Positions 4,335 through 58,458 of a stretch of 64,000 bases of DNA are shown here, piece after piece (within the stretch, counting starts at the first letter, position 1; each line of letters begins with the position of its first letter). The stretch covers positions 158 to 64,157 of the forward strand of contig DATEPP010000139.1 in assembly GCA_035273165.1 (NCBI GenBank), in the 5' to 3' direction. The translations under genes and the position numbers were made by a program. Source of the DNA: Gemmatimonadaceae bacterium (lineage in GTDB: Bacteria > Gemmatimonadota > Gemmatimonadetes > Gemmatimonadales > Gemmatimonadaceae). The notes under the pieces are model-generated. The model worked only from the letters and a program-made list of their open reading frames with translations. It had not been told where the DNA came from and did not search any database.

Positions 4335-7300
4335 CTAGTGGAAATCGTGGCGCTGGGCGTACTCCGCGCCGACCTCCGCCTTGAGGCCGCGAAACTCCTC
4401 GCCGCGAATGTTGACCACGCCCTGCTCCACCTGCAGCGTTCCACGCACGAGGAGCAAGGGTGTGGTCGAGATCAATAATGCCTGTCGCTCGAATCGCTTC
4501 GGTGTCACGACGACATTCACCGTCCCCGTTTCGTCCTCGAGTGTGAGAAAGACGAATCCCTTGGCCGTGCCTGGCCGCTGCCGGCAGATCACGAGGCCGG
4601 CGCTCGCGATTCGCTCACCGTCCTTTCCGTCCGTCACGAGCTGCCGTGCGGTCCGGACGCCGTTAGGCGCGAGCAGCGGCCGCAGATGCGACATCGGATG
4701 TCCATTGAGCGAGATGCCGGTCATGCGATAGTCTGCTTCGGTCAGCTCGCCCGGCGACATCGTTGGAAGTCCGGCGGTGCGCGCCGCCGTGCCGAGGTCG
4801 CGCCGGCGGCGGGGCGCCAACGGTCCCGCGTCGCCACGCAGCGCGTCGAGCACCTCCCATAACGCCGCGCGCCGCTTGCGGAGATCCGGCTCGTCGGGCA
4901 CGAAGCCATCGAAGGCTCCCGCTTCCGCGAGCTGGCGCAGCGTCCGTTGATCGAAGCGCGTCCGCCGCGCGAAATCCTCGATCGACCCGAACGGTCCCGC
5001 CGCGAGCGCGCCCTCGACGATCTCCTTCGCCTTCGGTCCGAGCCCGCGCACCGATCGCAGGCCGAGCCGGACGGCGGGTGCTCGCGAGCCCTCTGGTTCG
5101 CGCTCGAGCGTCGCATCCCACCGCGAGTGGCGCACGTCCACCGGTCGAACCTTCACGCCATGACGCTTCGCGTCTTCGATCAACGTGCCCGGCGCGTAGA
5201 AGCCCATCGGCTGTGCATTGAGGATCGCCGCCGTGAACTCGGGCGCGTAGTAATGTTTCAGAAACGCTGATGCATAGACGAGCAACGCGAACGACGCCGC
5301 GTGCGATTCCGGAAAGCCATAGTCGGCAAATGCGTTGATCTGATTATAGATCCGAAGCGCCGTTTCCTCGGCGATGCCATTGCTCTTCATTCCGTCGATG
5401 AGCTTTGCACAAATTGCCGCCATCCGCTCGCGGCTCCGCTTGTGCCCCATCGCGCGACGGAGCGTGTCGGCCTCGCCCGCTGAGAACCCGGCGCACGCGA
5501 TCGCCACCTGCATACCCTGCTCCTGGAAGAGCGGCACGCCTAACGTACGTGCCAGGATCGGCTCCAGCGACGGATGTGGATACTCGACCTTCTCTTCGCC
5601 CGCGCGCCGCCGCAGATAGGGATGCACCATGTCGCCCTGGATTGGCCCCGGACGAATGATCGCGACCTCCACGACCAGATCGTAGAAGCACCGCGGCTTG
5701 AGTCGCGGCAGCGTGTTCATCTGCGCGCGACTCTCCACCTGGAAGACGCCAATCGTGTCGGCCCGGCACAGATCCTCGTAGACCGATTGGTCGTCCATGT
5801 CCAGCTGCGCCAGATCCACCGTGATACCGCGTGTCTGCCGCACATACAGCAGGCAATCCTGGATCAACGTCAGCATCCCCAGACCGAGCAGATCGATCTT
5901 CACCAGTCCCACCGGATCGAGATCGTCCTTCTCCCACTGAATCACCGTCCGGTCGGGCATCGACGCTGGCTCGATCGGCACCACCGTCGACAGCGGCTCG
6001 GCCGTGAGCACGAAGCCGCCGACATGGATCGACCGGTGCCGCGGTACCTGATGCAGTCCATCCACGATCTCGGCGAGCGCTCGCACCCGCTTGTCCGCCG
6101 GATCCAACCCCGCGTGCACTAGCGGTGACTGGCGGTCTTCCGCCGATGTCGAGATGGCGGTCGTCGGATTGCGACGCTCGTTATGCGTTTCCTTCGCGTA
6201 CGGATCCATGTACTCGGGCCGCGTCGGTGATTGGTGGCTGGTGGCTGGTGCCTGGTGGAACCGCCGATTCTGTTGCACCGTGTCGTGACCCGTTTCACTT
6301 CCGTAGGGCTCGTACCCGGCGTTAGGCCGCGGCCGATCCGCCGTCGTGAGATGTTTTTTCCCCTTCGGCGCCAATTTCGATCTTTCGCCGTCTCGCGTCC
6401 CGCGTCCCGCGCCCCCCATCCCGCGTGCCGCCTCTTTCACTTCCCGCGACTCCAGCGTCGCCGACGTGCCCGGCATCATCTGCTGCCCGAACGCGCGCGC
6501 GATCACCTCTTCCGCTGACTCATCGCCCTCCTCTCCGGCTGCGCCTAACGAGCCGCCGCGCAGCGCTTCAGCCGTCGCGCGCGCCGAGAACCGGTCACTC
6601 AGCATCGACAGTCGGTCCGCCTGCTCGACGGAAAATCCCAGCACGCGCGCGGCGTCCCGTACCGCCGAGCGGCCCCGGTAGGTGATCTGCTCGCAGACCA
6701 TCGCCGCGTGCTCGCGCCCGTACTTCTCGTAGACGTACTGGATCACCCGCTCGCGCTCACGATGCGCGAAATCGATGTCGATGTCCGGCGCCTCGCGCCG
6801 CTCCTCACTCAGGAACCGCTCGAAGAGCAGTCCGAGACGAATGGGATCCACCGCCGTGATGCCAAGGCAATAGCAGACCGCGGAGTTCGCCGCCGATCCA
6901 CGACCCTGACAGAGAATCCCCTCGCGGCGCGCGAAGCGCACGATGTCCCACACGATGAGGAAGTATCCCGCCAGCCCGAGCCGGCGAATCATTCCCAGCT
7001 CGTGTTCGACCTGCCGGCGATGCGCTTCCGTCGGAAAGACATCCTCGCCTCCGTCGCGCTGCTCCGCTCCCCAGCGTTCCTGTGCCCCCTGGATCACCAG
7101 CCGCTCGAGATACTCGTCGGCGGTCACCTTCGGCGGCAGCGGAAAGGCCGGCAGCGCTGGCTCCAGCTGTTCCATTCGAAAGGCACAGCGTTCGGCGATC
7201 GCCCGCGTCGCGATGATTCCCTCCGGTGCGTGCTGCCAGCGCCGTCGCATCTGCGCCGCGCTCTTGAGATACCACTCACCGTTAGGCCGGAGCCGCGTCC

Positions 7301-8054
7301 CCATTGTATCGAGCGTTTTATCGTGCCGCAGGCACGACAAAACGTCGTGCACGATGCGATCGCGTGCCCGCGCGTAATGCACGTCGTTCGTCACGACCCA
7401 CGGGAGATCGAGCGCGCGCGCGACGTCGATCAGGCCGCGCACCGTCTCGCGCTCTTCCGCAAGTCCGTGATCCCAGCATTCGATGGCCACGCGACCATCG
7501 AATACGTCTTTTATGATCGCCGCCGCTTCACACGCGCCGTCGAGATCTTCGTTCGCCACGAGCGACGGCACCCAGCCGCGGGGGCACCCCGTGAGCGCGA
7601 ACAATCCGCGCGCGTGCCGCGCCACGAGGTCGAGCGACACCGACGGCTCTCCCCGCGGATTGTCCATGCGCGCCCGGGTGATGAGCGTGGAGAGATTTCC
7701 GTATCCCTCGCGCGTTTCGGCGAGGAGAAGCAGATGAGTGGCTGGTGATTGGTGGCTGGTGGCTGGTGGTTGGTCACCAGTCACCAGCCACCGACCACCA
7801 GTCACCGTCAGCTCCGCCCCAATGATCCCTTCGATCCCCACCTCGCGCGTCGCCTGCGCGAACCGCACCGCCCCTCCGAGCTCGTCGTGATCCGTGAGCG
7901 CGAGCGCGGGCAGTCCGAGATCGGCCGCCCGCGCCGCCAGGACTTCCGGCAACGCCGCGCCGTCGAGAAGAGAAAAGCAGGAATGACAGTGCAGCTCGAC
8001 GTAGTCGTTGGCTCGGGCCGATCGCGTCAATCGAACCACCCCTGCACCCACCAT
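4335..8054 (-). CDS. dnaE2: Error-prone DNA polymerase III alpha subunit DnaE2 (ImuC) carrying in-frame repeat insertions
   Basis: PHP motif YVELHCHSCFSLLDGA, polymerase core (GVPLFQEQGMQ, HVGGFVL), C-terminal OB fold. Lies downstream of imuA-imuB. Start ATG 8054 was chosen just after the imuB stop; the longest ORF reaches 8141. Confidence 0.9.
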   Translation of the reverse strand: MVGAGVVRLTRSARANDYVELHCHSCFSLLDGAALPEVLAARAADLGLPALALTDHDELGGAVRFAQATREVGIEGIIGAELTVTGGRWLVTGDQPPATSHQSPATHLLLLAETREGYGNLSTLITRARMDNPRGEPSVSLDLVARHARGLFALTGCPRGWVPSLVANEDLDGACEAAAIIKDVFDGRVAIECWDHGLAEERETVRGLIDVARALDLPWVVTNDVHYARARDRIVHDVLSCLRHDKTLDTMGTRLRPNGEWYLKSAAQMRRRWQHAPEGIIATRAIAERCAFRMEQLEPALPAFPLPPKVTADEYLERLVIQGAQERWGAEQRDGGEDVFPTEAHRRQVEHELGMIRRLGLAGYFLIVWDIVRFARREGILCQGRGSAANSAVCYCLGITAVDPIRLGLLFERFLSEERREAPDIDIDFAHRERERVIQYVYEKYGREHAAMVCEQITYRGRSAVRDAARVLGFSVEQADRLSMLSDRFSARATAEALRGGSLGAAGEEGDESAEEVIARAFGQQMMPGTSATLESREVKEAARGMGGAGRGTRDGERSKLAPKGKKHLTTADRPRPNAGYEPYGSETGHDTVQQNRRFHQAPATSHQSPTRPEYMDPYAKETHNERRNPTTAISTSAEDRQSPLVHAGLDPADKRVRALAEIVDGLHQVPRHRSIHVGGFVLTAEPLSTVVPIEPASMPDRTVIQWEKDDLDPVGLVKIDLLGLGMLTLIQDCLLYVRQTRGITVDLAQLDMDDQSVYEDLCRADTIGVFQVESRAQMNTLPRLKPRCFYDLVVEVAIIRPGPIQGDMVHPYLRRRAGEEKVEYPHPSLEPILARTLGVPLFQEQGMQVAIACAGFSAGEADTLRRAMGHKRSRERMAAICAKLIDGMKSNGIAEETALRIYNQINAFADYGFPESHAASFALLVYASAFLKHYYAPEFTAAILNAQPMGFYAPGTLIEDAKRHGVKVRPVDVRHSRWDATLEREPEGSRAPAVRLGLRSVRGLGPKAKEIVEGALAAGPFGSIEDFARRTRFDQRTLRQLAEAGAFDGFVPDEPDLRKRRAALWEVLDALRGDAGPLAPRRRRDLGTAARTAGLPTMSPGELTEADYRMTGISLNGHPMSHLRPLLAPNGVRTARQLVTDGKDGERIASAGLVICRQRPGTAKGFVFLTLEDETGTVNVVVTPKRFERQALLISTTPLLLVRGTLQVEQGVVNIRGEEFRGLKAEVGAEYAQRHDFH
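6226..6258. repeat. Heptamer array GGTGATT GGTGGCT GGTGGCT GGTGCCT GGTGG inside dnaE2
   Basis: Direct reading. Encodes HQAPATSHQSP on the coding (minus) strand. Confidence 0.85.
6394..6432. repeat. (GCGTCCC)n-type array inside dnaE2, giving a G-quadruplex motif on the coding strand
   Basis: cgcgtcccgcgtcccgcgccccccatcccgcgtgccgcc. The complement carries at least four G3+ tracts. Confidence 0.8.
7738..7806. repeat. Imperfect palindrome of (GGTGGCT)n / (AGCCACC)n heptamers inside dnaE2
   Basis: Left arm gtggctggtgattggtggctggtggctggtggttgg, centre ggtcacc (7772-7778), right arm ccagtcaccagccaccgaccaccagtcacc. In-frame. Confidence 0.85.
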
Positions 8055-9847
8055 TGATCGTCCATCCGATCGAGGTAGAGCACGAAGTCCCCGAACGCAC
8101 TCTCGCAGCGCCAGTAATCGCGCCGATAACCGTCGTCCCACCAGTCGCCGGAGAGCCGCTCCGGCCCGACGGCGCGCTCGATCGTTAGGCGCCGGCCCCG
8201 CCAGGTCACGGTGCGTGGCACGCCGTCGTCGCAGAGGACGAACACCGACTCCGGTGACTCGAGCAGCCGGATGGCGGGGTCGGCGCCCGCGGGCGCCGTC
8301 CCCAGGGCCGTGTTGCTGGAGGAGGACGCCAGCGACGGAGCATCCTCAGCCGCGTCCGCCCACGTCCCCATCCGCTCCGGGACATGCGCGTCGCGCGCCA
8401 CCGGCCTAACGACGACGTTCGGGCCCAGCTCGGCGCGCAGCCGCGCGAGCGCGGCATCGACAGCCGCTCCATCGCGCCACGTCGCGTCCAGCAGCTCGCC
8501 TTGCTCTCCGGAGAGCGGCGCCGCGGCGACGACTGCCACCCCGACTCCGATCGCCGGCGCCGTCAACGACCAGTGGTCGAGCAGAGCGCGGCAGCGCTCG
8601 AACAGGGGAGCGGAGCGGGCCACGGGGCGGGGGAGTCGAATTTCGCGCGTCACTGTGTGCGCCCGCGCGAGCGCGTTCGTCGGCAGCGCTCCGCGGCGGT
8701 CGTCGAGACTGATCGTGATCGACAGCGCCGCCACCGCCTGGCCGCGGCTGGCCAGCTGTGTCGTTAGGCGATCAAGCGCCGCGCGCACGAGAAAGAGAAT
8801 CGGCTCCATCGTCGTCGCCGCCATCGGCAGCTCCGCCTCGACCGCCGGGAAGTCGACGACACGCGCCAGCACCGGCCGCCTGGAATCCTCTCCCCGGGCC
8901 AGACGCCAGGCGCCGAGGCCTTCCTGTCCCCAGCGCCGCTCTACGTCCTCTGCTGACAGCGCGGCGAACGAACCCACGTTGCGTAGCCCGAGCGCCTGCA
9001 GCGCCAGCCGCAGCTCGTCGTCCATCGGCACGAGCGCCAGCGGTGCCGGCGCGAGATACGCCGCGTCGTGGCCATGCGGCACGATGCACACGAGCGACCG
9101 ATCGTCTCCCTGCTGAAAGGACGTTCCCGCCCACGTCGCCGCGCGAGCCGCGACGCACGAATCCGCGATCGCCACGCGCGATCGTGGATGCCAGCGTGCC
9201 GCGATACGCCGAAGCGTGTACGCCAGCTCCCGCTCGCCGCTCCGGCCGCCGAATCCCGACGCGCCGACCCACCACATTCCGGGCACCCCAGCGACCGGCG
9301 TGATCTGAGGGCTCGCCTCGAGCAGGAGCGCGGTCATCTCCGTCGTCGCTGCCGCGACCGCGACGTCATCCCACGGGTACTCGTGCAGCTCGGCGCAGAT
9401 CGCACGCGCCTCGGCGATCGTCATGCCTGCGCGAATGCCGGCTCGCCCCGCCGCTGCCGACACGGCACGCAGCCGTCGTCGCCCCGCGATCGCCTTCGGT
9501 CCGCCGAGCTCCGTCAGGACGATCGGCGCGTCATCCCAATGTCCCGGTAGCGATGGCGCGTTCGTCCAGGGGCCCGAGGTGGGACGGAGTGTGGAGATCG
9601 CCGGCGCCGAATTCGGGCTCGGCGCAGCGGCGCTTCCGGGCGAGAACGCGTCCAGCGCCCCCTGCTTCGTTAGGCGCGCCGGCTCCATGGCCCGGAACGG
9701 GAGCATGAGTTGCACGTCGCTCGCTCCCAGGTCGCCCCGTCTGGCGGCGCGCCACACCGCGCCGATCGGGAACCTCGGGATGCGTACACAGGCGACGCGC
9801 CACTCCAATTGCACAGCTGACCTCCACGGTTCGATGAATGCCTCCAC
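8027..9847 (-). CDS. imuB: ImuB, Y-family-polymerase-like mutasome subunit
   Basis: 606 aa. N-terminal ACVRIPRFPIGAVW is typical of the ImuB/DinB-fold start. Position between imuA and dnaE2. GTG start at 9847. Confidence 0.85.
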   Translation of the reverse strand: MEAFIEPWRSAVQLEWRVACVRIPRFPIGAVWRAARRGDLGASDVQLMLPFRAMEPARLTKQGALDAFSPGSAAAPSPNSAPAISTLRPTSGPWTNAPSLPGHWDDAPIVLTELGGPKAIAGRRRLRAVSAAAGRAGIRAGMTIAEARAICAELHEYPWDDVAVAAATTEMTALLLEASPQITPVAGVPGMWWVGASGFGGRSGERELAYTLRRIAARWHPRSRVAIADSCVAARAATWAGTSFQQGDDRSLVCIVPHGHDAAYLAPAPLALVPMDDELRLALQALGLRNVGSFAALSAEDVERRWGQEGLGAWRLARGEDSRRPVLARVVDFPAVEAELPMAATTMEPILFLVRAALDRLTTQLASRGQAVAALSITISLDDRRGALPTNALARAHTVTREIRLPRPVARSAPLFERCRALLDHWSLTAPAIGVGVAVVAAAPLSGEQGELLDATWRDGAAVDAALARLRAELGPNVVVRPVARDAHVPERMGTWADAAEDAPSLASSSSNTALGTAPAGADPAIRLLESPESVFVLCDDGVPRTVTWRGRRLTIERAVGPERLSGDWWDDGYRRDYWRCESAFGDFVLYLDRMDDQWWVQGWFD

Positions 9848-10517
9848 CCCCTTTCTCCACGACGATGGTCATGCGTCTGGTAGGTGGAGGGTGGTCTCGG
9901 GGCGCAGAGTGCGGGACGCGTGCTGCGGGACGCGGGACGAGGGACGCGGGGAGTCTCGAGTCACGAGGAGTCAGCGCATCCCGCGTCCCGCGTCCCGCGC
10001 CCCGCATTACGCGCAGTCGCACCGCGCCGCCGAGGAGGGAGGTGTGCCCTTCCTCCCCGGCGATGACGAGGGCGGCTCCCGATTCACGCGCGAGCCTCGT
10101 TAGGCGCACCGCCACGGCGCGCGACAACATCGGCCCCGAATCGATCACCACGAGCGCGAACGCACCGCACCGCAACAACACGTCGGCACACCACGCCGCG
10201 CGCGAAGGGTCGCGCGGCCGGATCATCCATAATCCTTCGCTGCCGAGATGCGCCCAGTCGCGCGGCGCGAGCGTACGTGTCGCGTCGATGTACGCCACCC
10301 ACCCCGCTGCGTCCAGCGTGCGTGCGACGATCTGACGCAGCAGCGTCGCTTTGCCACTCCCGCGCGCGCCGACAACCTCCGTCAGTCGCCCACGTGGCAA
10401 ACCTCCACCCACCAGCCGCGCATCTAGTGCTTCCACCCCTGTCGGCAGGGCGCTTCCCTCGACACTGGGTGCGGAGAGAGGGTGGGGGAGGAGGTCGACG
10501 AGAGACTGTGGAAGCAT
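9531..10517 (-). CDS. imuA: ImuA (RecA/SulA-like mutasome subunit) with in-frame repeat insertion and a long C-terminal overlap of imuB
   Basis: Walker-A-like GARGSGKATLL and RecA-fold pattern. ATG 10517 was preferred over TTG 10595. The frame only stops at 9531, 316 nt inside imuB. Confidence 0.7.
   Translation of the reverse strand: MLPQSLVDLLPHPLSAPSVEGSALPTGVEALDARLVGGGLPRGRLTEVVGARGSGKATLLRQIVARTLDAAGWVAYIDATRTLAPRDWAHLGSEGLWMIRPRDPSRAAWCADVLLRCGAFALVVIDSGPMLSRAVAVRLTRLARESGAALVIAGEEGHTSLLGGAVRLRVMRGAGRGTRDALTPRDSRLPASLVPRPAARVPHSAPRDHPPPTRRMTIVVEKGGGGIHRTVEVSCAIGVARRLCTHPEVPDRRGVARRQTGRPGSERRATHAPVPGHGAGAPNEAGGAGRVLARKRRCAEPEFGAGDLHTPSHLGPLDERAIATGTLG
9911..10005. repeat. Inverted (GGGACGC)n / (GCGTCCC)n heptamer arrays inside imuA, with G4 motifs on both strands
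   Basis: 9927-9951 reads GGGacgcGGGacgaGGGacgcGGGG. 9978-10005 reads atcccgcgtcccgcgtcccgcgccccgc. In-frame in imuA. Confidence 0.85.
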
Positions 10518-10589
10518 CGGAGTTTGGTCGGGAATCACTCCCGCGACCGCCGAGACTGCCGCGACGCGAAGGGGCGAATAAGCTATCCC

Positions 10590-10604
10590 GAACAAAAACC
10601 GAAA
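10590..10604. promoter_or_regulatory. Candidate LexA (SOS) box, GAAC-N7-GAAA
   Basis: gaacaaaaaccgaaa lies in the imuA/yggL divergent region and resembles the alphaproteobacterial GTTC-N7-GTTC direct-repeat box. The LexA motif of this lineage is unknown to me. Confidence 0.2.
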
Positions 10605-10697
10605 GCAAGAAGGAGGCCTTCCCCCGAGAGCTTGACGGTGATTCCGGCTCGCGCCACGCTACACAAGCCTGCAATACCGCACCGGCAAGGAGGAAGG

Positions 10698-11021
10698 ATG
10701 GATCATCTCACCCCCAGGACCACGCTCGGCTTCTCCATCCGCTTTCAGCTGGCGGCCGGTCTCGGTGAAGACGGCGCGCTCGAGCTCTGGGATGATTTCC
10801 TTGCCGGACCGCTCGGCGGCCGCGGACTGACCTCCCACGCCGTGGATGAGGAGACGAGCGGCCTCGCGCGACTTCTCTATCGTCCGAATGCGAACGCCAC
10901 CGAAGACGATCGACGAGCCGTCCGCGAATGGGCCCGCCGTCGCGGCGAAATCGCCGACTACGACATCGGTCCTCTGACGAGCCTCGGATCACCGCCGCCT
11001 AACGTGAACATCACTTCCTGA
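10698..11021 (+). CDS. yggL: YggL-family (DUF469) 50S ribosome-binding protein
   Basis: ATG 10698 is preceded by aaggaggaagg. LGFSIRFQL...ELWDDFLAGPL...RRAVREWARRRGEI matches the E. coli YggL pattern. Confidence 0.65.
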   Translation: MDHLTPRTTLGFSIRFQLAAGLGEDGALELWDDFLAGPLGGRGLTSHAVDEETSGLARLLYRPNANATEDDRRAVREWARRRGEIADYDIGPLTSLGSPPPNVNITS

Positions 11022-25698: not shown

Positions 25699-25887
25699 GT
25701 GCAGCGACGGATCATCGGCTTTCACACCGACGAGGAAGGGCACTGGGTCGCGGAGCTCGACTGCGGTCACACCGTGCACATGCGTCACGAGCCACCGTGG
25801 CAGAATCGCCCCTGGGTGCTGACGAAGCCCGGTCGGGACGGGATGCTGGGGGTCGTGCTAGACTGTAAGAAGTGCGCACCTTCGTAA
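25699..25887 (+). CDS. DUF3565-family small zinc-binding protein
   Basis: GFHTDEEGHWVAELDCGHTVHMRHEPPWQNRPWV...LDCKKC pattern. GTG start. Confidence 0.55.
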   Translation: MQRRIIGFHTDEEGHWVAELDCGHTVHMRHEPPWQNRPWVLTKPGRDGMLGVVLDCKKCAPS

Positions 25888-26666
25888 TTCACAGCCTGGG
25901 GGAACTGGTCGATCGCGTGACGCCGTCCGAGCCGGACCCGGTAACGGGGCGACGGCGCGACACCGGCGTGTATCGAGGCAGTTCCAACGCGGCCAACCCG
26001 CTGCTCACGAGCCTCGACCGATTGGGTGGAATCGAGCCGCCGCATTCCAAATCGGATCTCGAGGAGCACATTCTCCGCAACTACATCCGATACTCGCGGC
26101 CGCACCTGGGCACCGATCCGGTCAACGATTGGGAACATCTCGTCTCGGCGCAGCACCATGGCGTGCCGACGCGTCTGCTGGACTGGACCTATTCACCGCT
26201 GGTCGCTGCATTTTTTGCGACGCGACCGAACGAGGAGCGCGAGGAGTGCGATCGCGCCGTCTGGCGGCTCGACTGGAAGTCGGTGCACGAGAAGTTCGAG
26301 TTCCCCACGCTCTCGCTCCTCATCAAGGATCTGGACGAGCTGTTCGGCAAGGAAGGTCACTTCACGCCCTGGACGCTGATGCGTCGGGGAGCGCAGCGCG
26401 ACTTCGCCTGCCTGCTCGAGCCGCCGTCGCTCGATCAACGGATCGTGGCGCAGGCAGCCGTCTTCACACTCTGCTCGGAAAAGTCCCGGCCGTTCGACGC
26501 GTTCCTCAGTGATCACGGCCTGGGTAGCGCGTTGACGAAGTACGTCATTCCGGCGAAGGAAGTCGGTCGCCTCCGCGACCAGCTCGACCTCGTCGGCGTG
26601 GACGAGCGGCGACTGTTTCCCGATCTCGACGGAGTGGCTGAGGCCATCCGCCGCTATTACGCATAG
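25872..26666 (+). CDS. FRG-domain protein
   Basis: VYRGSS ... AQHHGVPTRLLDWTYSPLVAAFFA ... DQRIVAQAAVFT are hallmark FRG-domain motifs. Overlaps the upstream gene by 16 nt. Confidence 0.75.
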   Translation: MRTFVIHSLGELVDRVTPSEPDPVTGRRRDTGVYRGSSNAANPLLTSLDRLGGIEPPHSKSDLEEHILRNYIRYSRPHLGTDPVNDWEHLVSAQHHGVPTRLLDWTYSPLVAAFFATRPNEEREECDRAVWRLDWKSVHEKFEFPTLSLLIKDLDELFGKEGHFTPWTLMRRGAQRDFACLLEPPSLDQRIVAQAAVFTLCSEKSRPFDAFLSDHGLGSALTKYVIPAKEVGRLRDQLDLVGVDERRLFPDLDGVAEAIRRYYA

Positions 26667-26768
26667 CGCACTCTTCGAGATCTCCCGCCAGCCCCACGGG
26701 CAAAGGTATCTTCGGGAGCGCAGCAGTTGCTGTGCGGAAAGAGACCTCAGTCGTCGAAGCGCAAGCTC

Positions 26769-27323
26769 ATGGGATTGTTCAGAAAAGAGCGGTCGTCGCC
26801 GCCGCCACGCGCGGAACGGCCGCCGATTGATCGCCTCGACGTGCAGCTCCTGCAGAGCAGCGCCGTCATCCTGTATCACAAGGCGAATCTGCTCGCACAC
26901 GACATCGCCGCGCTCCAACAGTTCGGGTATCGCATTTACACTCTCGATGCCGCGCTCTGGAAGAGCGCCGCGGACTTCCATGCTGCCGCACGGCGGGAGC
27001 TTGCGTTTCCCGACTATTACGCGGCCAACCTCGCTTCGTGGATCGATTGCCTCGGCGAGATCGAGGTGCCTGACGAGGGTGGGGTCGTGATGCAGTTCCG
27101 TCACTTCGACGCGTTCGCGCGGGCCGATCCGCAATTCGCGCACACCCTGCTCGACAGCATCGAATCGGCGTCGCGTCGATTCTTGCTACTTGGACAGAGG
27201 CTGCTCGCGCTCGTGCAGTCGGACGATCCGCGGATTCGATTCGAGCGGATCGGTGCCGTGCCCGTGAACTGGAACCCTCGCGAGTGGCTGGACTCGGACC
27301 GCGGATTGCGGCCCGCCTCCTGA
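26769..27323 (+). CDS. Barstar-family (barnase-inhibitor-like) protein
   Basis: DFHAAARRELAFPDYYAANLASWIDCL aligns with the barstar core [27 protein letters not shown]. Confidence 0.65.
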   Translation: MGLFRKERSSPPPRAERPPIDRLDVQLLQSSAVILYHKANLLAHDIAALQQFGYRIYTLDAALWKSAADFHAAARRELAFPDYYAANLASWIDCLGEIEVPDEGGVVMQFRHFDAFARADPQFAHTLLDSIESASRRFLLLGQRLLALVQSDDPRIRFERIGAVPVNWNPREWLDSDRGLRPAS

Positions 27324-27356: not shown

Positions 27357-27557
27357 GTGAGCCCGATGCAGCCCGACCGTGATGACGCCCCAACCCCGAA
27401 TGACGAGCCCCGGCGTGGCGAGGAGAGCGGCTCGCAGCCACCCAAACCCAGGAAGGACGAGAGAGCGCCGGACCGGGTCGAGGAGGCGGACCAGGAGAGC
27501 TTTCCAGCCAGCGATCCGCCGTCCTGGTCTCCGCTGGCACCCGGACACAAGCAGTAG
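27357..27557 (+). CDS. Small acidic protein with ESFPASDPP motif
   Basis: 66 aa, GTG start. SFPASDPPSW is a motif I recall from small hypothetical proteins. Confidence 0.45.
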   Translation: MSPMQPDRDDAPTPNDEPRRGEESGSQPPKPRKDERAPDRVEEADQESFPASDPPSWSPLAPGHKQ

Positions 27558-27572: not shown

Positions 27573-27692
27573 GCTGGTGGCTGGTGGCTGGTGGCTGGTG
27601 GCTGGTGACTGGTGGTGAGTGACGGGTGGCGAGTGGCGAGTGAATTCGGAACGAAGCGTTTTCTTACCTAGCACCTAGCACCTAGCACCTGG
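27573..27692. repeat. Composite heptamer-repeat element: (GCTGGTG)x5-7, (GTGGCGA)x2, (CACCTAG)x3-4
   Basis: Direct reading gives 5 perfect GCTGGTG units at 27573-27607 plus degenerate units, gtggcgagtggcga at 27627-27640, and tacctag/cacctag/cacctag/cacctgg at 27665-27692. Lies between convergent genes. Confidence 0.85.
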
Positions 27693-27700
27693 GAGCCCGC

Positions 27701-28057
27701 TCACATCGGCGGGATCGTCAGTACGACGGTGTCGCCCGGGGTGACGACGATCGACTGCGAGACAGGTCCGCGCGGCGTCGCGATCGGGAGGGCCTGAAAG
27801 CGCAGCTCGCGAACGCCGCGGACGACGGTGGCCGGCAGGGTGAAGTAGGCGTTGCTGGTGCCTGTTACCGTACCGAGGCGAATCCGATTGCTGGTCTCCG
27901 GCAGCACGAAGATGTTCATGTCCGGGAAGCCCTGATTCTCGACCTTGAGAACGGTCCGCACCGGCGCCTCCTCCGGCATGTGGCTCGTGTGAGCGCATCC
28001 CGCGCCGGCGACGAGCACGAGACCAAAGGCGGCGATGGTGGGAACGAGGCGTTGCAT
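27701..28057 (-). CDS. Small lipoprotein (paralog of 38220..38600)
   Basis: Only the C-terminal 118 aa of ORF 27701..28669 look real. MQRLVPTIAAFGLVLVAGAGC is a lipobox. Shares the V.NQ.F.DM..(F/Y)V...R.G.V.G.S.A.FTL pattern with 38220..38600. Confidence 0.6.
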   Translation of the reverse strand: MQRLVPTIAAFGLVLVAGAGCAHTSHMPEEAPVRTVLKVENQGFPDMNIFVLPETSNRIRLGTVTGTSNAYFTLPATVVRGVRELRFQALPIATPRGPVSQSIVVTPGDTVVLTIPPM

Positions 28058-57557: not shown

Positions 57558-58250
57558 TTAGTGAGACGAGCTGCTCGATCCGCCCGAGCCGCTGGAACCG
57601 CGCGAGCCACTCGAACCACCGCTCGACCCACCGGAGCCCGACGAGCCGGAGGAGCCGCTCGAGCCACCCATACCACCGGACGATCCACTCGATCCGCTCG
57701 AGCCACCCATCCCGCCGCTGGATCCACTCGAGCCCTTCTGCCCACTCTGCCCGCTCTGCCCGCTCTGCCCACTCTGCCCACTCTGGCCGCTCTGGCCGCT
57801 CTGACCACTCTGGCCGGAGCTCGAGCCGGATTTCGATGAGCCGGAGGAACCGGACGAGCCGGACGAGCCGCTGGCGCCGAAGCCGGAGGAGCCGCTTCCG
57901 CTCGACGAGCCGCTGCCTGAGGAGCCATAGCTGCCCGACGAGCCGCTGCCACTGCGACCACTCGTCTGACTGCTGCCGAGCTCCGGATCCGTCATGTCAC
58001 CGTCGCCCTGACGGCCCCGGGTCGCCGAGCTGCCGATGCCCTCGTCACCCTGATTGCCGCGATCCGTGCGGCTCTGCGAGCTGCTGCTGCTGCTGCCCGA
58101 CTGCTGCCCGAAGCCGCCACTCGAACCGCTCGAGCCTGCATTGCGTCCCGAGGTGCCGCTTCCGCTGCTGCCGGACATCGAGTCACTATCAGAACTGCCT
58201 GACGAGCCACTCGAGCCACTCTTGTTGAGATCGTCCTTGCGGTCAGCCAT
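57558..58250 (-). CDS. Ser/Gly-rich intrinsically disordered protein
   Basis: ATG 58250 lies 9 nt downstream of GGAGG. The 230 aa are almost entirely S/G with an (SGQ)n block. Coding status rests on the RBS and ORF length only. Confidence 0.5.
   Translation of the reverse strand: MADRKDDLNKSGSSGSSGSSDSDSMSGSSGSGTSGRNAGSSGSSGGFGQQSGSSSSSSQSRTDRGNQGDEGIGSSATRGRQGDGDMTDPELGSSQTSGRSGSGSSGSYGSSGSGSSSGSGSSGFGASGSSGSSGSSGSSKSGSSSGQSGQSGQSGQSGQSGQSGQSGQSGQKGSSGSSGGMGGSSGSSGSSGGMGGSSGSSGSSGSGGSSGGSSGSRGSSGSGGSSSSSH
57738..57815. repeat. 9-bp tandem repeat (CTGSCCRCT)x8.7 encoding (SGQ)n
   Basis: Direct reading: ctgcccact ctgcccgct ctgcccgct ctgcccact ctgcccact ctggccgct ctggccgct ctgaccact ctggcc. 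Confidence 0.9.
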
Positions 58251-58458
58251 CGTTTGCATCCTCCGAGTGTGATGATCCGCGGCGCAACCATTCTTCAGGC
58301 GCCGCGCCCGCGTATGGATGAGCAGGTACGGTGCCACCTACCGTACTTTCTCGCGAGTTGACCGTGCTCGACCGGCGGTCTACGTTGCGTCGCGTGACGC
58401 GAGCACGACCATTATCTGGAGCAGCGCGGCACCAGCGCGCGCGTGCCGGCCTCGGCTG

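What the first reader, a model, noticed from the sequence alone, without database searches (positions are those of the whole stretch)
7738..7806. In-frame heptamer-repeat palindrome inserted in the PHP domain of error-prone polymerase DnaE2
A 69-bp imperfect palindrome is built from GGTGGCT-type heptamers on the left arm and their complement on the right arm, centred on GGTCACC at 7772-7778. It lies inside dnaE2 without breaking the frame. It encodes GGRWLVTGDQPPATSHQSPAT, between the conserved GAEL and HLLLLAE segments where DnaE2 proteins I know have only a short loop. A near-perfect hairpin of about 30 bp per arm within a coding region is unusual. It should impede replication and transcription or fold in the mRNA. 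The same PATSHQSP peptide and heptamer recur at 6226-6258 and, in non-coding form, at 27573-27614, which indicates a dispersed, possibly mobile, repeat family.
Basis: partly seen in the sequence, partly recalled or inferred. Interest (0 to 1): 0.7.

Follow-up and report, generated by a model that had tools for sequence, protein, structure and literature searches.

The report
In-frame heptamer hairpin repeat in dnaE2
A 69-bp hairpin built from 7-base repeats sits in frame in a tolerant loop of an error-prone DNA polymerase gene; it belongs to a fast-turnover repeat family that repeatedly occupies the same few loops of this gene across a soil-bacterial family, and it is probably tolerated selfish DNA rather than a functional module.

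Summary
Window 7738-7806 is a 69-bp imperfect palindrome of GGTGGCT-type heptamers. It lies in frame in dnaE2 (minus strand, 4335-8054), between two conserved PHP metal ligands (Glu81, His107).

It is not a one-off. In about 1.25 Mb of Gemmatimonadaceae dnaE2 loci, period 7 is the commonest tandem period, arrays peak at about 4 units (median 31 nt), and many form G-rich-arm-first inverted pairs around a spacer. Units are lineage-specific. Within one genome, copies share homologous spacers, so whole elements are copied.

In proteins at least 86% identical, this loop holds hairpins with six different units. One relative (95% DNA identity to a hairpin-bearing one) keeps only a deletion footprint. 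dnaE2 carries such elements at about 3.6 times the density of other coding DNA, at recurrent positions. The gene stays intact (79 of 80 loci) and is under purifying selection (pN/pS about 0.1).

I found no support for phase variation, for selection on sense-strand mRNA structure, or for a G-quadruplex origin of the 4-unit preference.

The closest known elements are the Xanthomonas GGGAATC and Nostoc heptamer repeats (same unit size, 4-unit mode, convergent pairs). Rickettsia palindromic elements are the analogue for in-frame insertion.

Verdict: a real new variant of a known but mechanistically unexplained repeat class, of moderate interest.

The parts
7738..7806 (-). Site A element. A 69-bp in-frame palindrome of GGTGGCT/AGYCACC heptamers with no spacer. 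On the mRNA strand the G-rich arm comes first (encoding GGRWLVTG) and the C-rich arm second (encoding QPPATSHQSPA). It lies between PHP ligands Glu81 (GAE) and His107 (THL).
7738..7774 (+). Arm written GGTGGCT on the + strand (about 5.3 units).
7775..7806 (+). Arm written AGTCACC/AGCCACC on the + strand (about 4.5 units).
4335..8054 (-). dnaE2 (error-prone Pol III alpha-like polymerase), 1239 aa from ATG 8054. All nine PHP metal-ligand positions are conserved. pN/pS is about 0.1 against close orthologues.
6226..6258 (-). Site C. A single-arm in-frame array of the same family ((AGCCACC)n on the coding strand, peptide PATSHQSP). It varies by 36-42 nt among relatives more than 90% identical.
6389..6431 (-). 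Site B. A single-arm in-frame array of a second family (GCGGGAC on the coding strand, peptide RDAGRGT-like). Unit number varies among close relatives.
9911..10005 (.). Palindrome of the GCGGGAC family: about 5 units, a 24-nt spacer, then about 4 inverted units. It lies 64-158 nt upstream of the imuB start. It is conserved in the orthologous contig L081 with +2 units in one arm and -2 in the other.
27573..27690 (.). Composite non-coding array: (GCTGGTG)x6, (GTGGCGA)x4, a spacer, then (ACCTAGC)x3.6. It occupies the gap of about 143 nt between convergent ORFs (+ strand stop at 27557, minus-strand stop at 27701).
8027..9847 (-). imuB-like gene (IMS and IMS_C domains), overlapping the dnaE2 start. 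It forms the operon context.

Best explanation
The 69-bp palindrome is the current occupant of a long-lived 'landing pad' for a class of hairpin-forming tandem-heptamer elements. The general form is (G-rich 7-nt unit) x about 4-5, an optional spacer of 0-70 nt, then (complementary unit) x about 4-5. These elements populate Gemmatimonadaceae genomes. They spread and turn over at the DNA level in four ways: whole elements are copied to new places, arrays gain and lose units by slippage, hairpins are excised leaving short footprints, and new elements land in or beside old ones. Selection acts only as a filter. An element survives inside a gene if its total length is a multiple of 3, if its unit has no stop codon, and if it lies in a loop that tolerates extra residues. 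Because 7 and 3 share no factor, an array encodes the same 7-residue cycle in every frame. The loop between PHP ligands Glu81 and His107 of DnaE2 is one such place. The result is about 20 extra low-complexity residues in a functional, purifying-selected polymerase. What is shown: the anatomy, the in-frame status, hypervariability at the site, the excision footprint, unit-number polymorphism, multi-copy families with homologous spacers, enrichment in dnaE2, and purifying selection on the rest of the gene. What is inferred: the copying mechanism (no enzyme identified), the neutrality of the insert, and the idea that existing arrays attract new ones.
For: (1) Real and in frame. (2) The loop is hypervariable. 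Among 120 homologues, inserts of 0 to about 50 aa with unrelated sequences sit between GAELTV and THLxLLAE, while the 70%-identity outgroup has a fixed loop of about 10 aa. (3) DNA of seven relatives at least 86% identical shows heptamer hairpins at this exact site with six different units: GGTGGCT, GCGTGGA, GGGGTGN, GAGCAGA, GGGCAGA and GGCGAGT. All fold at -54 to -72 kcal/mol with z -3.9 to -8.2, whereas the insert-less orthologue has z +0.28. (4) Excision: L208 and L081 are 95% identical over 3.7 kb and differ by only four indels, all in heptamer arrays. The 87-nt hairpin is reduced in L081 to GCGAGTGG|CACTCAT, which is one unit plus the base of the stem. (5) General class: in 1.25 Mb, period 7 is the commonest tandem period, with 155 arrays of at least 3 copies. 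There is a sharp mode at 4-4.5 units and a median length of 31 nt. There are 19 inverted pairs with lineage-specific units. (6) Copying of whole elements: L015 has four TCGAGAT palindromes; the spacers of three of them are homologous to one another, in either orientation (27/32 and 19/21 identities). L030 has the composite (CCAGAGA)4(CGAGTCA)4(CGATTCC)4 at four or five places. (7) Host bias: there are 38 elements in dnaE2 (1.31 per 10 kb), 24 in other coding DNA (0.36 per 10 kb, 11 of them in imuB or at the dnaE2 5' edge) and 32 in non-coding DNA (1.05 per 10 kb); binomial p = 2e-4. The elements sit at recurrent positions in the protein. (8) The gene is functional: the ORF is intact in 79 of 80 loci, pN/pS is 0.08-0.14, and all nine PHP ligand positions are conserved. 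(9) The loop is structurally permissive: Mtb DnaE1 has about 30 residues at this position, and the AlphaFold model places the insert as a lower-confidence loop between two strands.
Against: No mobilising enzyme, target-site duplication or insertion motif was found; flanks were inspected by eye only. The source genome is available only as 64 kb, so 'dispersed' rests on three loci for this unit plus analogy with other genomes. The conserved hairpin potential at one site across many lineages, the 16:3 G-rich-arm-first polarity and the enrichment in the imuB-dnaE2 operon are not predicted by a purely neutral model and could reflect function or a specific mechanism. Some site-A arrays (P0004 and P0005) are clearly orthologous and diverged in place, so part of the unit diversity may be drift within an array rather than replacement. 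The enrichment statistic treats elements as independent although they cluster in 18 of 81 loci, and the coding mask is crude.
Confidence: 0.6

Rival explanations
1. The hairpin is a selected cis-regulatory structure of the mutasome operon. As mRNA it would be an RNase III target or a translational brake on DnaE2. As DNA it would be a cruciform or fork barrier that couples replication stress to the operon. The sequence is free to change as long as the stem is kept.
For: Hairpin potential at site A is conserved in at least nine lineages while the sequence is not. The operon is the main coding host of such elements. A second palindrome lies upstream of imuB and is conserved in L081. The arms remain about 87-95% complementary although Q and P0001, which share the element, differ at pS 0.29 in the flanks.
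Against: There is no sense-strand bias: the sense RNA is more stable than the antisense in only 4 of 14 intragenic elements, and G-U pairs are not enriched on the sense strand. The hairpin is lost in P0002 and P0122 and is short or absent in several close relatives, while the gene remains under purifying selection. Other sites in the same gene carry single-arm arrays or non-palindromic composites that cannot form hairpins. The same architecture is common in ordinary intergenic DNA.
Confidence: 0.15
2. The palindrome arose on the spot and not by insertion. A short local inverted repeat (GTGG...CCAC) was expanded by polymerase slippage and fold-back (snap-back) synthesis. The resemblance to other loci reflects a shared mutational bias for G-rich heptamers.
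For: The flanks resemble degenerate units (GACGGTG ... CCAC|TCAT). Unit-number changes are frequent. The P0004 and P0005 arrays diverged in place. Mrazek's polymerase-slippage idea for heptamers is summarised in PMC4679880.
Against: The apparent 'seed' in P0002 is the remnant of a hairpin with a complex 43-nt spacer that is still present in a 95%-identical relative, so it is a deletion and not a precursor. The same unit, with the same variant spectrum, is found at three loci in the window. Spacers are homologous between copies within L015, and whole composites are copied in L030. The sharp 4-unit mode is not what open-ended slippage predicts.
Confidence: 0.12
3. It is a contingency locus. Gain or loss of single 7-nt units shifts the frame and switches the error-prone polymerase on and off (a phase-variable mutator).
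For: The unit length is not a multiple of 3 and unit number is unstable.
Against: dnaE2 is intact in 79 of 80 loci, and the single frameshift (L057) is at a G8 homopolymer, not at an array. All indels between close relatives are in frame at each site (87 nt at A, a net 12 nt at B, 42 nt at C). The arrays are short (about 4 units), unlike typical contingency tracts.
Confidence: 0.03
4. The encoded peptide is itself adaptive: a new disordered loop that changes PHP-domain activity or partner binding.
For: The insert lies between two metal ligands of a PHP site whose nine ligand positions are all conserved. The MITE review (PMC10969869) raises the possibility that in-frame Rickettsia palindromic element insertions contribute to protein evolution but calls their contribution unexplored, and tandem repeats of Borg elements are reported to create new disordered protein regions (abstract listed).
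Against: The peptide sequence, length and even presence are not conserved among proteins 86-95% identical. The model confidence in the insert is low, about 57.
Confidence: 0.05

Closest known systems
Dispersed heptamer repeats of Xanthomonas (GGGAATC) and Nostoc/Anabaena (GGGGAYT), Rehm et al. 2015 (PMC4692102); the cyanobacterial STRR heptamers are the same phenomenon (own knowledge)
   Same: The unit is 7 nt. [quoted passage not shown] There are many dispersed copies, and 70-75 'convergent' inverted pairs per Xanthomonas genome have the same G-rich-arm-first polarity. The repeats are mostly intergenic with a minority intragenic. The GGGAATC unit itself occurs in Gemmatimonadaceae loci L030, L060 and L063, written CGATTCC.
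   Different: Here there are many different lineage-specific units, most without G-tracts, so the G-quadruplex rationale for four units does not apply. Units turn over rapidly at a fixed site. Density is high inside one operon (imuB-dnaE2), and the elements are in frame. [quoted passage not shown]
Heptanucleotide 'long simple sequence repeats' (Mrazek et al. 2007, as summarised in PMC4679880)
   Same: Heptanucleotide arrays are the most abundant long-SSR class in most of the genomes examined, and genomes rich in 5-11-nt repeats are phylogenetically scattered. Polymerase slippage was proposed as the driver.
   Different: That work treats the repeats as microsatellites. Here the fixed length of about 4 units, the inverted pairing, the shared spacers and the copied composites point to defined elements.
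REPINs / BIMEs (REP doublets forming hairpins, mobilised by RAYT transposases), PMC3116915
   Same: Two inverted arms plus a less-conserved spacer form a hairpin of about 70-110 nt. There are many copies per genome, and the doublet is the replicative unit. Spacer flipping is seen here.
   Different: REP arms are single imperfect palindromes with GTAG or CGTC tags, not tandem heptamers. REPINs are extragenic. No RAYT was identified here (not tested).
Rickettsia palindromic elements (RPE), via the MITE review PMC10969869
   Same: These are palindromic repeats inserted in frame in unrelated protein-coding genes, and the gene products are predicted to stay compatible with fold and function.
   Different: RPEs are about 150 bp with a conserved family sequence and a conserved encoded peptide. 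They are not tandem heptamers, and they are restricted to Rickettsia. They are analogous only.
SSR contingency loci (phase variation)
   Same: A tandem repeat whose unit is not a multiple of 3 lies inside an ORF, with variable unit number.
   Different: No frame-breaking variants were seen. The arrays are short and paired as hairpins.

Membership tests
DnaE2 (error-prone C-family polymerase of the imuB-dnaE2 mutasome cassette) | PHP, Pol III alpha palm, finger, HhH and OB domain order | tested here: met
   Pfam hits for all five domains; the best PDB matches are Pol III alpha subunits.
DnaE2 (error-prone C-family polymerase of the imuB-dnaE2 mutasome cassette) | A Y-family-like imuB gene lies immediately upstream in the same orientation | tested here: met
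   ORF 8027-9847 (minus strand) has IMS and IMS_C domains and overlaps the dnaE2 start; the same order is seen in L081, L206 and L207.
Dispersed heptamer-repeat class (Xanthomonas GGGAATC / Nostoc type) | Tandem 7-nt unit with a preferred array size of about four units | tested here: met
Dispersed heptamer-repeat class (Xanthomonas GGGAATC / Nostoc type) | The same unit occurs at many separate loci of one genome | tested here: inconclusive
   There are three loci for GGTGGCT and two for GCGGGAC in 64 kb, and four or five loci per roughly 9-23 kb locus in L015 and L030. The whole source genome was not available.
Dispersed heptamer-repeat class (Xanthomonas GGGAATC / Nostoc type) | Convergent (G-rich arm first) inverted pairs | tested here: met
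   16 of 19 pairs have the G-rich arm first; the site A element has the same polarity.
Dispersed heptamer-repeat class (Xanthomonas GGGAATC / Nostoc type) | G-tracts able to form a G-quadruplex | tested here: not met
   GGTGGCT has no GGG run. 116 of 179 arrays have units without GGG or CCC and still show the 4-unit mode.
REPIN / REP (RAYT-mobilised) | Each arm is an imperfect palindrome of 20-40 bp carrying a GTAG or CGTC tag | tested here: not met
   The arms are direct tandem heptamers and no terminal GTAG or CGTC is present. The definition is taken from the abstract of PMC3733652 as listed.
REPIN / REP (RAYT-mobilised) | A cognate RAYT (Y1 HUH transposase) gene is present in the genome | not tested
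   Only 64 kb of the genome was available and the window's genes were not all scanned.
MITE | Terminal inverted repeats flanked by target-site duplications | tested here: inconclusive
   Inverted arms are present. No duplication is evident in the flanks of the L015 and L030 copies or at site A, by inspection only.
Rickettsia palindromic elements | A conserved element sequence of about 150 bp and a conserved encoded peptide, found in Rickettsia | tested here: not met
   The sequence, size and host differ. Only the in-frame palindromic insertion is shared.
SSR contingency locus | Unit-number changes switch the reading frame on and off | tested here: not met
   79 of 80 loci are intact, and the one frameshift is at a G8 run. 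Indels between close relatives are in frame at each site.
Known structured RNA (Rfam) | A match to any Rfam covariance model | tested here: not met
   No hit above the gathering score anywhere in the window.

The most novel reading that the evidence does not exclude
The heptamer hairpins are not ordinary selfish repeats. They would be the product of a dedicated, polarity-specific DNA 'writing' or repair process. One example is the addition of about four copies of a genome-specific G-rich 7-8-nt unit to both 3' ends of a break followed by joining, which would give exactly the observed arrangement of a G-rich arm, a junction and a C-rich arm. Another is an unrecognised enzyme that reads the G-rich strand. 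On this reading, the imuB-dnaE2 operon is either a preferred substrate or is functionally coupled to the process. This would explain the fixed 4-unit arms, the 16:3 polarity, the genome-specific units shared between loci, the repeated re-occupation of the same sites, and the same architecture in Xanthomonas, cyanobacteria and Gemmatimonadota.
Probability: 0.1. Interest if true: 0.85.

Novelty: new variant of a known kind. Interest (0 to 1): 0.55.

Why it matters
Heptanucleotide arrays have been reported as the most abundant long simple repeats in most of the bacterial genomes examined (Mrazek 2007, as summarised in PMC4679880), yet their origin, their preference for four units and their inverted pairing remain unexplained. 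The only published rationale, G-quadruplex formation, does not fit the units seen here. Gemmatimonadaceae dnaE2 offers a natural comparative system. One conserved, selected gene has a handful of fixed positions at which hairpins with different units are gained, resized, replaced and excised among relatives that are 86-95% identical. That makes the dynamics and the rules (frame, stop-free units, polarity, arm length) directly measurable. It also gives a concrete target for searching for a responsible enzyme by phylogenetic profiling. There are two practical points. These hairpins break metagenome assemblies and create spurious small ORFs. They also show that a PHP-domain loop between two metal ligands tolerates 0 to about 50 extra residues.

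Tried and rejected
- **Phase variation.** I looked for frame-breaking arrays in 80 dnaE2 loci. There was one frameshift, at a G8 run and not at an array. Rejected.
- **Selection for an mRNA hairpin.** I compared sense and antisense folding for 14 intragenic elements. The sense strand was more stable in only 4, with no excess of G-U pairs. No support.
- **G-quadruplex explanation of the 4-unit mode.** The mode persists for units without GGG or CCC. Rejected as a general cause.
- **'Empty site' as the ancestral state.** The P0002 site is a footprint of a hairpin still present in a 95%-identical relative. Rejected.
- **Known RNA family.** Rfam gave no hit in the window.
- **Metagenome scan for (GGTGGCT)3.** It returned 120 or more contigs with GC of 25-73%, mostly single arrays and about 10 palindromic. 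This shows the unit is not lineage-specific but told me nothing about the source genome.
- **Census of proteins carrying the PATSHQS heptapeptide cycle.** There were only two significant hits, both tiny hypothetical ORFs, one from the cyanobacterium Sphaerospermopsis. Short low-complexity queries cannot reach significance in this database, so the census was uninformative.
- **Exact-sequence look-up of the window's DnaE2.** It is not in the collection. The same call did, however, lead to P0121.
- **My own strict period-7 detector.** It missed most arrays, so I used the TRF results instead.
- **AlphaFold model of residues 1-330.** It was only mediocre (mean pLDDT 69.8) and I used it only to say that the insert is a lower-confidence loop between two strands.
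- **Assembly artefact.** Rejected, because the same kind of element is seen at the same site in independent assemblies from ENA, JGI and NCBI.
Full report
**1. The observation**

The sequence at 7738-7806 is as described. About five GGTGGCT-type heptamers are followed directly by about 4.5 copies of the complement (AGTCACC/AGCCACC). The inverted arms are 31 nt long and 87% complementary, in two alternative registers. TRF reports two period-7 arrays.

The element lies in a minus-strand ORF (4335..8141, probable start ATG 8054). This ORF has the full DnaE2/Pol III alpha domain set, and an ImuB-like gene lies directly upstream. The frame is unbroken, and the encoded segment is GAELTV-TGGRWLVTGDQPPATSHQSPA-THLLLLAE.

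The double heptamer with up to 2 mismatches occurs 13 times at three places in the window, against 0.36 expected by chance. The hairpin is much more stable than shuffled controls: -62.8 kcal/mol as mRNA (z -8.6) and -34.4 kcal/mol as ssDNA (z -6.7).

**2. Where it sits in the protein**

Alignment to Mycobacterium tuberculosis DnaE1 (7pu7, 5lew) places the insert between the conserved GxE and THL motifs. In DnaE1 numbering these correspond to PHP metal ligands Glu73 and His107 (the ligand assignment is my own knowledge of the DnaE1 literature). DnaE1 itself has a loop of about 30 residues at this position.

All nine ligand positions (H22, H24, D31, H56, E81, H107, C157, D224, H226 in the window protein) are invariant or nearly invariant in 44 homologues. 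An AlphaFold model, which is mediocre overall (mean pLDDT 69.8), shows the insert as a lower-confidence loop (about 57, against 76-78 in the flanks) connecting two beta-strands.

**3. Orthologues**

The 120 best homologues are all Gemmatimonadaceae-like error-prone polymerases. Between GAELTV and THLxLLAE they carry anything from 4 to about 50 residues of unrelated sequence. A more distant group (about 70% identity, HLPLLAES) has a fixed loop of about 10 residues.

I fetched the DNA of seven close relatives (at least 86% protein identity). Each has a heptamer hairpin at exactly this site, but with different units:
- P0001: GGTGGCT, the same family as the window
- P0003: GCGTGGA, with a 45-nt spacer
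- P0021: GGGGTGN, where the contig breaks inside the hairpin
- P0004: GAGCAGA
- P0005: GGGCAGA, visibly orthologous to the P0004 array but diverged
- P0008 and P0121: GGCGAGT

All fold into long hairpins (-54 to -72 kcal/mol, z -3.9 to -8.2). The insert-less P0002 sequence does not (z +0.28).

P0002 and P0121 lie in one 90% cluster, and their genes are 95% identical at the DNA level. The only four indels in 3.7 kb are in heptamer arrays: 87 nt at this site, 14 and 2 nt at site B, and 42 nt at site C. The P0002 'empty site' GCGAGTGG|CACTCAT is one unit plus the base of the stem of the P0121 hairpin. It is therefore an excision footprint and not a virgin site.

Two further in-frame arrays in the window's dnaE2 keep their unit family in close relatives but differ in unit number. 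They are site B at 6389-6431 (GCGGGAC family) and site C at 6226-6258 (the same AGCCACC family as site A). The palindrome upstream of imuB (9911-10005) is conserved in L081 with +2 units in one arm and -2 in the other.

**4. A general class**

I surveyed 81 sequences (1.25 Mb: the window plus 80 dnaE2 loci from GTDB genomes). Period 7 is the commonest tandem period, with 155 arrays of at least 3 copies, against 92 for period 6 and 60 for period 8. Copy number has a sharp mode at 4-4.5 units and a median length of 31 nt, whereas periods 6 and 9 simply decay.

Units are lineage-specific. Many arrays form inverted pairs around a spacer of 10-70 nt. In L015, three of the four TCGAGAT palindromes have spacers homologous to one another, in either orientation (27/32 and 19/21 identities). 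L003 and L005 carry the same element at an orthologous site with the spacer flipped. L030 carries the same three-block composite at four or five places, four of them in dnaE2. Whole elements are therefore copied; this is not simple microsatellite slippage.

In 16 of 19 pairs the G-rich arm is the 5' arm (p = 0.004). All site-A elements of the close clade share this polarity, as do the palindromic (GGTGGCT)n hits in metagenomes.

**5. Host bias**

After merging arms and blocks into 94 elements:

| Location | Elements | Density per 10 kb |
|---|---|---|
| dnaE2 | 38 | 1.31 |
| Other coding-like DNA | 24 | 0.36 |
| Non-coding DNA | 32 | 1.05 |

Of the 24 in other coding-like DNA, 11 are in the upstream imuB-like ORF or at the dnaE2 5' edge. 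The binomial test gives p = 2e-4.

Within DnaE2 the elements fall at recurrent positions: aa 89-110 (this site, in nine loci), 323-348, 500-517, 540-585, about 604, 930-996 and 1028-1130.

The caveats are that elements cluster in 18 of the 81 loci, and that my coding mask is crude.

**6. Constraint on the gene**

dnaE2 is intact in 79 of 80 loci. The single frameshift is at a G8 run. pN/pS against seven relatives is 0.08-0.14.

Because 7 and 3 share no factor, a heptamer array is read in all three phases, so it encodes the same 7-residue cycle whatever the frame. GGTGGCT has no stop codon in any phase on either strand. In the loci, where dnaE2 is on the + strand, 10 arrays have a stop codon on the + strand against 33 on the - strand.

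**7. Tests of function**

There is no sense-strand bias in hairpin stability or G-U content (4 of 14 elements). There is no Rfam match. There are no frame-switching variants. The 4-unit mode holds for the 116 arrays whose units lack GGG or CCC, so the G-quadruplex rationale that Rehm et al. proposed for the same preference in Xanthomonas is not a general explanation.

**8. Interpretation**

The best-supported reading is that this is tolerated, fast-turnover repeat DNA occupying a permissive loop. Selection only filters for frame, for stop-free units and for position. Recurrence at the same sites, together with composite arrays, suggests that existing arrays persist and attract or are replaced by new ones.

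Three things remain unexplained: the polarity, the 4-unit arm length, and the preference for the mutasome operon. They leave room for a functional or mechanistic link, but I found no direct evidence for one.

**9. Comparison with what is known**

The closest described elements are the Xanthomonas GGGAATC and Nostoc heptamer repeats. They share the 7-nt unit, the preference for four units, the convergent pairs and the mostly intergenic distribution (PMC4692102). The GGGAATC unit itself occurs in some Gemmatimonadaceae loci. Mrazek's observation that heptanucleotide long SSRs are the most abundant class is summarised in PMC4679880.

REPINs (PMC3116915) share the architecture of a hairpin doublet plus spacer, but not the arm structure. 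Rickettsia palindromic elements (PMC10969869) share only the in-frame intragenic habit.

My literature searches found nothing on such elements in Gemmatimonadota or in dnaE2. Absence from this library does not prove that no description exists.

**10. Verdict**

It is a new variant of a known but mechanistically unexplained repeat class. Interest is moderate (0.55). The single hairpin is ordinary once the class is recognised, but the comparative pattern in dnaE2 is a useful handle on an open question.

Noticed in passing
All inverted heptamer/octamer pairs, e.g. window 7738-7806 and 9911-10005; L015 6851-6947; L055 4164-4238: There is a strong polarity: the G-/purine-rich arm is the 5' arm in 16 of 19 pairs (purine-rich first in 16, pyrimidine-rich first in 1). 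L046 19311-19378 is one of the exceptions. Hairpin formation alone does not require this. The Xanthomonas pairs are described as 'convergent', which is the same polarity.
   Followed up: partly
Window about 6100-6620 (DnaE2 aa about 490-650): Gemmatimonadaceae DnaE2 proteins carry a clade-specific segment of about 160 aa that splits the Pfam palm-domain match. It has conserved motifs (DRPRPNAxYEPYGS, HNERRNPTTA) between variable stretches. A few homologues (P0046, P0069, P0087, P0104) lack most of it. Heptamer sites B and C lie inside it.
   Followed up: partly
L030 3435-3535, 6028-6120, 6725-6821, 8264-8332; also L060 and L063: There are non-palindromic composite elements made of three different heptamers, each repeated about 4 times: (CCAGAGA)4(CGAGTCA)4(CGATTCC)4. 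They are copied to several places inside one dnaE2 gene. CGATTCC is the reverse complement of the Xanthomonas GGGAATC unit.
   Followed up: partly
L003 8783-8876 versus L005 2970-3059: The same GTGAACC palindrome lies at an orthologous site just upstream of dnaE2 in two genomes, but the spacer is inverted between them. This suggests arm-mediated flipping.
   Followed up: no
Window 57558-58337 (minus strand): An ORF encodes a 259-aa Ser/Gly-rich low-complexity protein (SGSSGSSG..., GQS x7). It is built from nested 9-, 18-, 27-, 39- and 57-nt tandem repeats, a different kind of repeat from the heptamers.
   Followed up: no
Window 25869-27323 (+ strand): An FRG-domain gene is followed by a Barstar-like (barnase inhibitor) gene just upstream of the 27.57-kb heptamer composite. 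A short ORF ending at 27557 encodes an ESFPASDPPSW-like C-terminus.
   Followed up: no
Window 4335-8054; alignment A1: All nine PHP metal-ligand positions known from the proofreading-active PHP domain of M. tuberculosis DnaE1 are conserved in this DnaE2 clade. The PHP site may therefore be catalytically competent.
   Followed up: partly
Window 9848-10700; L081 3947-4627; L207 429-1184; L206 538-1518: In L206 a RecA_N-like (ImuA-like) gene precedes imuB. In the window, L081 and L207 the gene callers instead place a 226-251-aa ORF with no Pfam hit on the opposite strand, and it starts inside the heptamer palindrome. That gene call may be an artefact of the stop-free array.
   Followed up: no
L204 1-90 (contig end); P0032 and P0035 N-termini: Several metagenome contigs and gene calls end inside or right after the site-A hairpin. 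These palindromes probably break short-read assemblies.
   Followed up: partly
Metagenome loci L108, L111, L112, L147, L174 (GC 47-55%): The same (GGTGGCT)n - short loop - (AGCCACY)n hairpins occur in much lower-GC contigs, typically right at gene ends. The unit is therefore not restricted to Gemmatimonadota. A 54-aa 'hypothetical protein' of the cyanobacterium Sphaerospermopsis consists largely of the same heptapeptide cycle.
   Followed up: no
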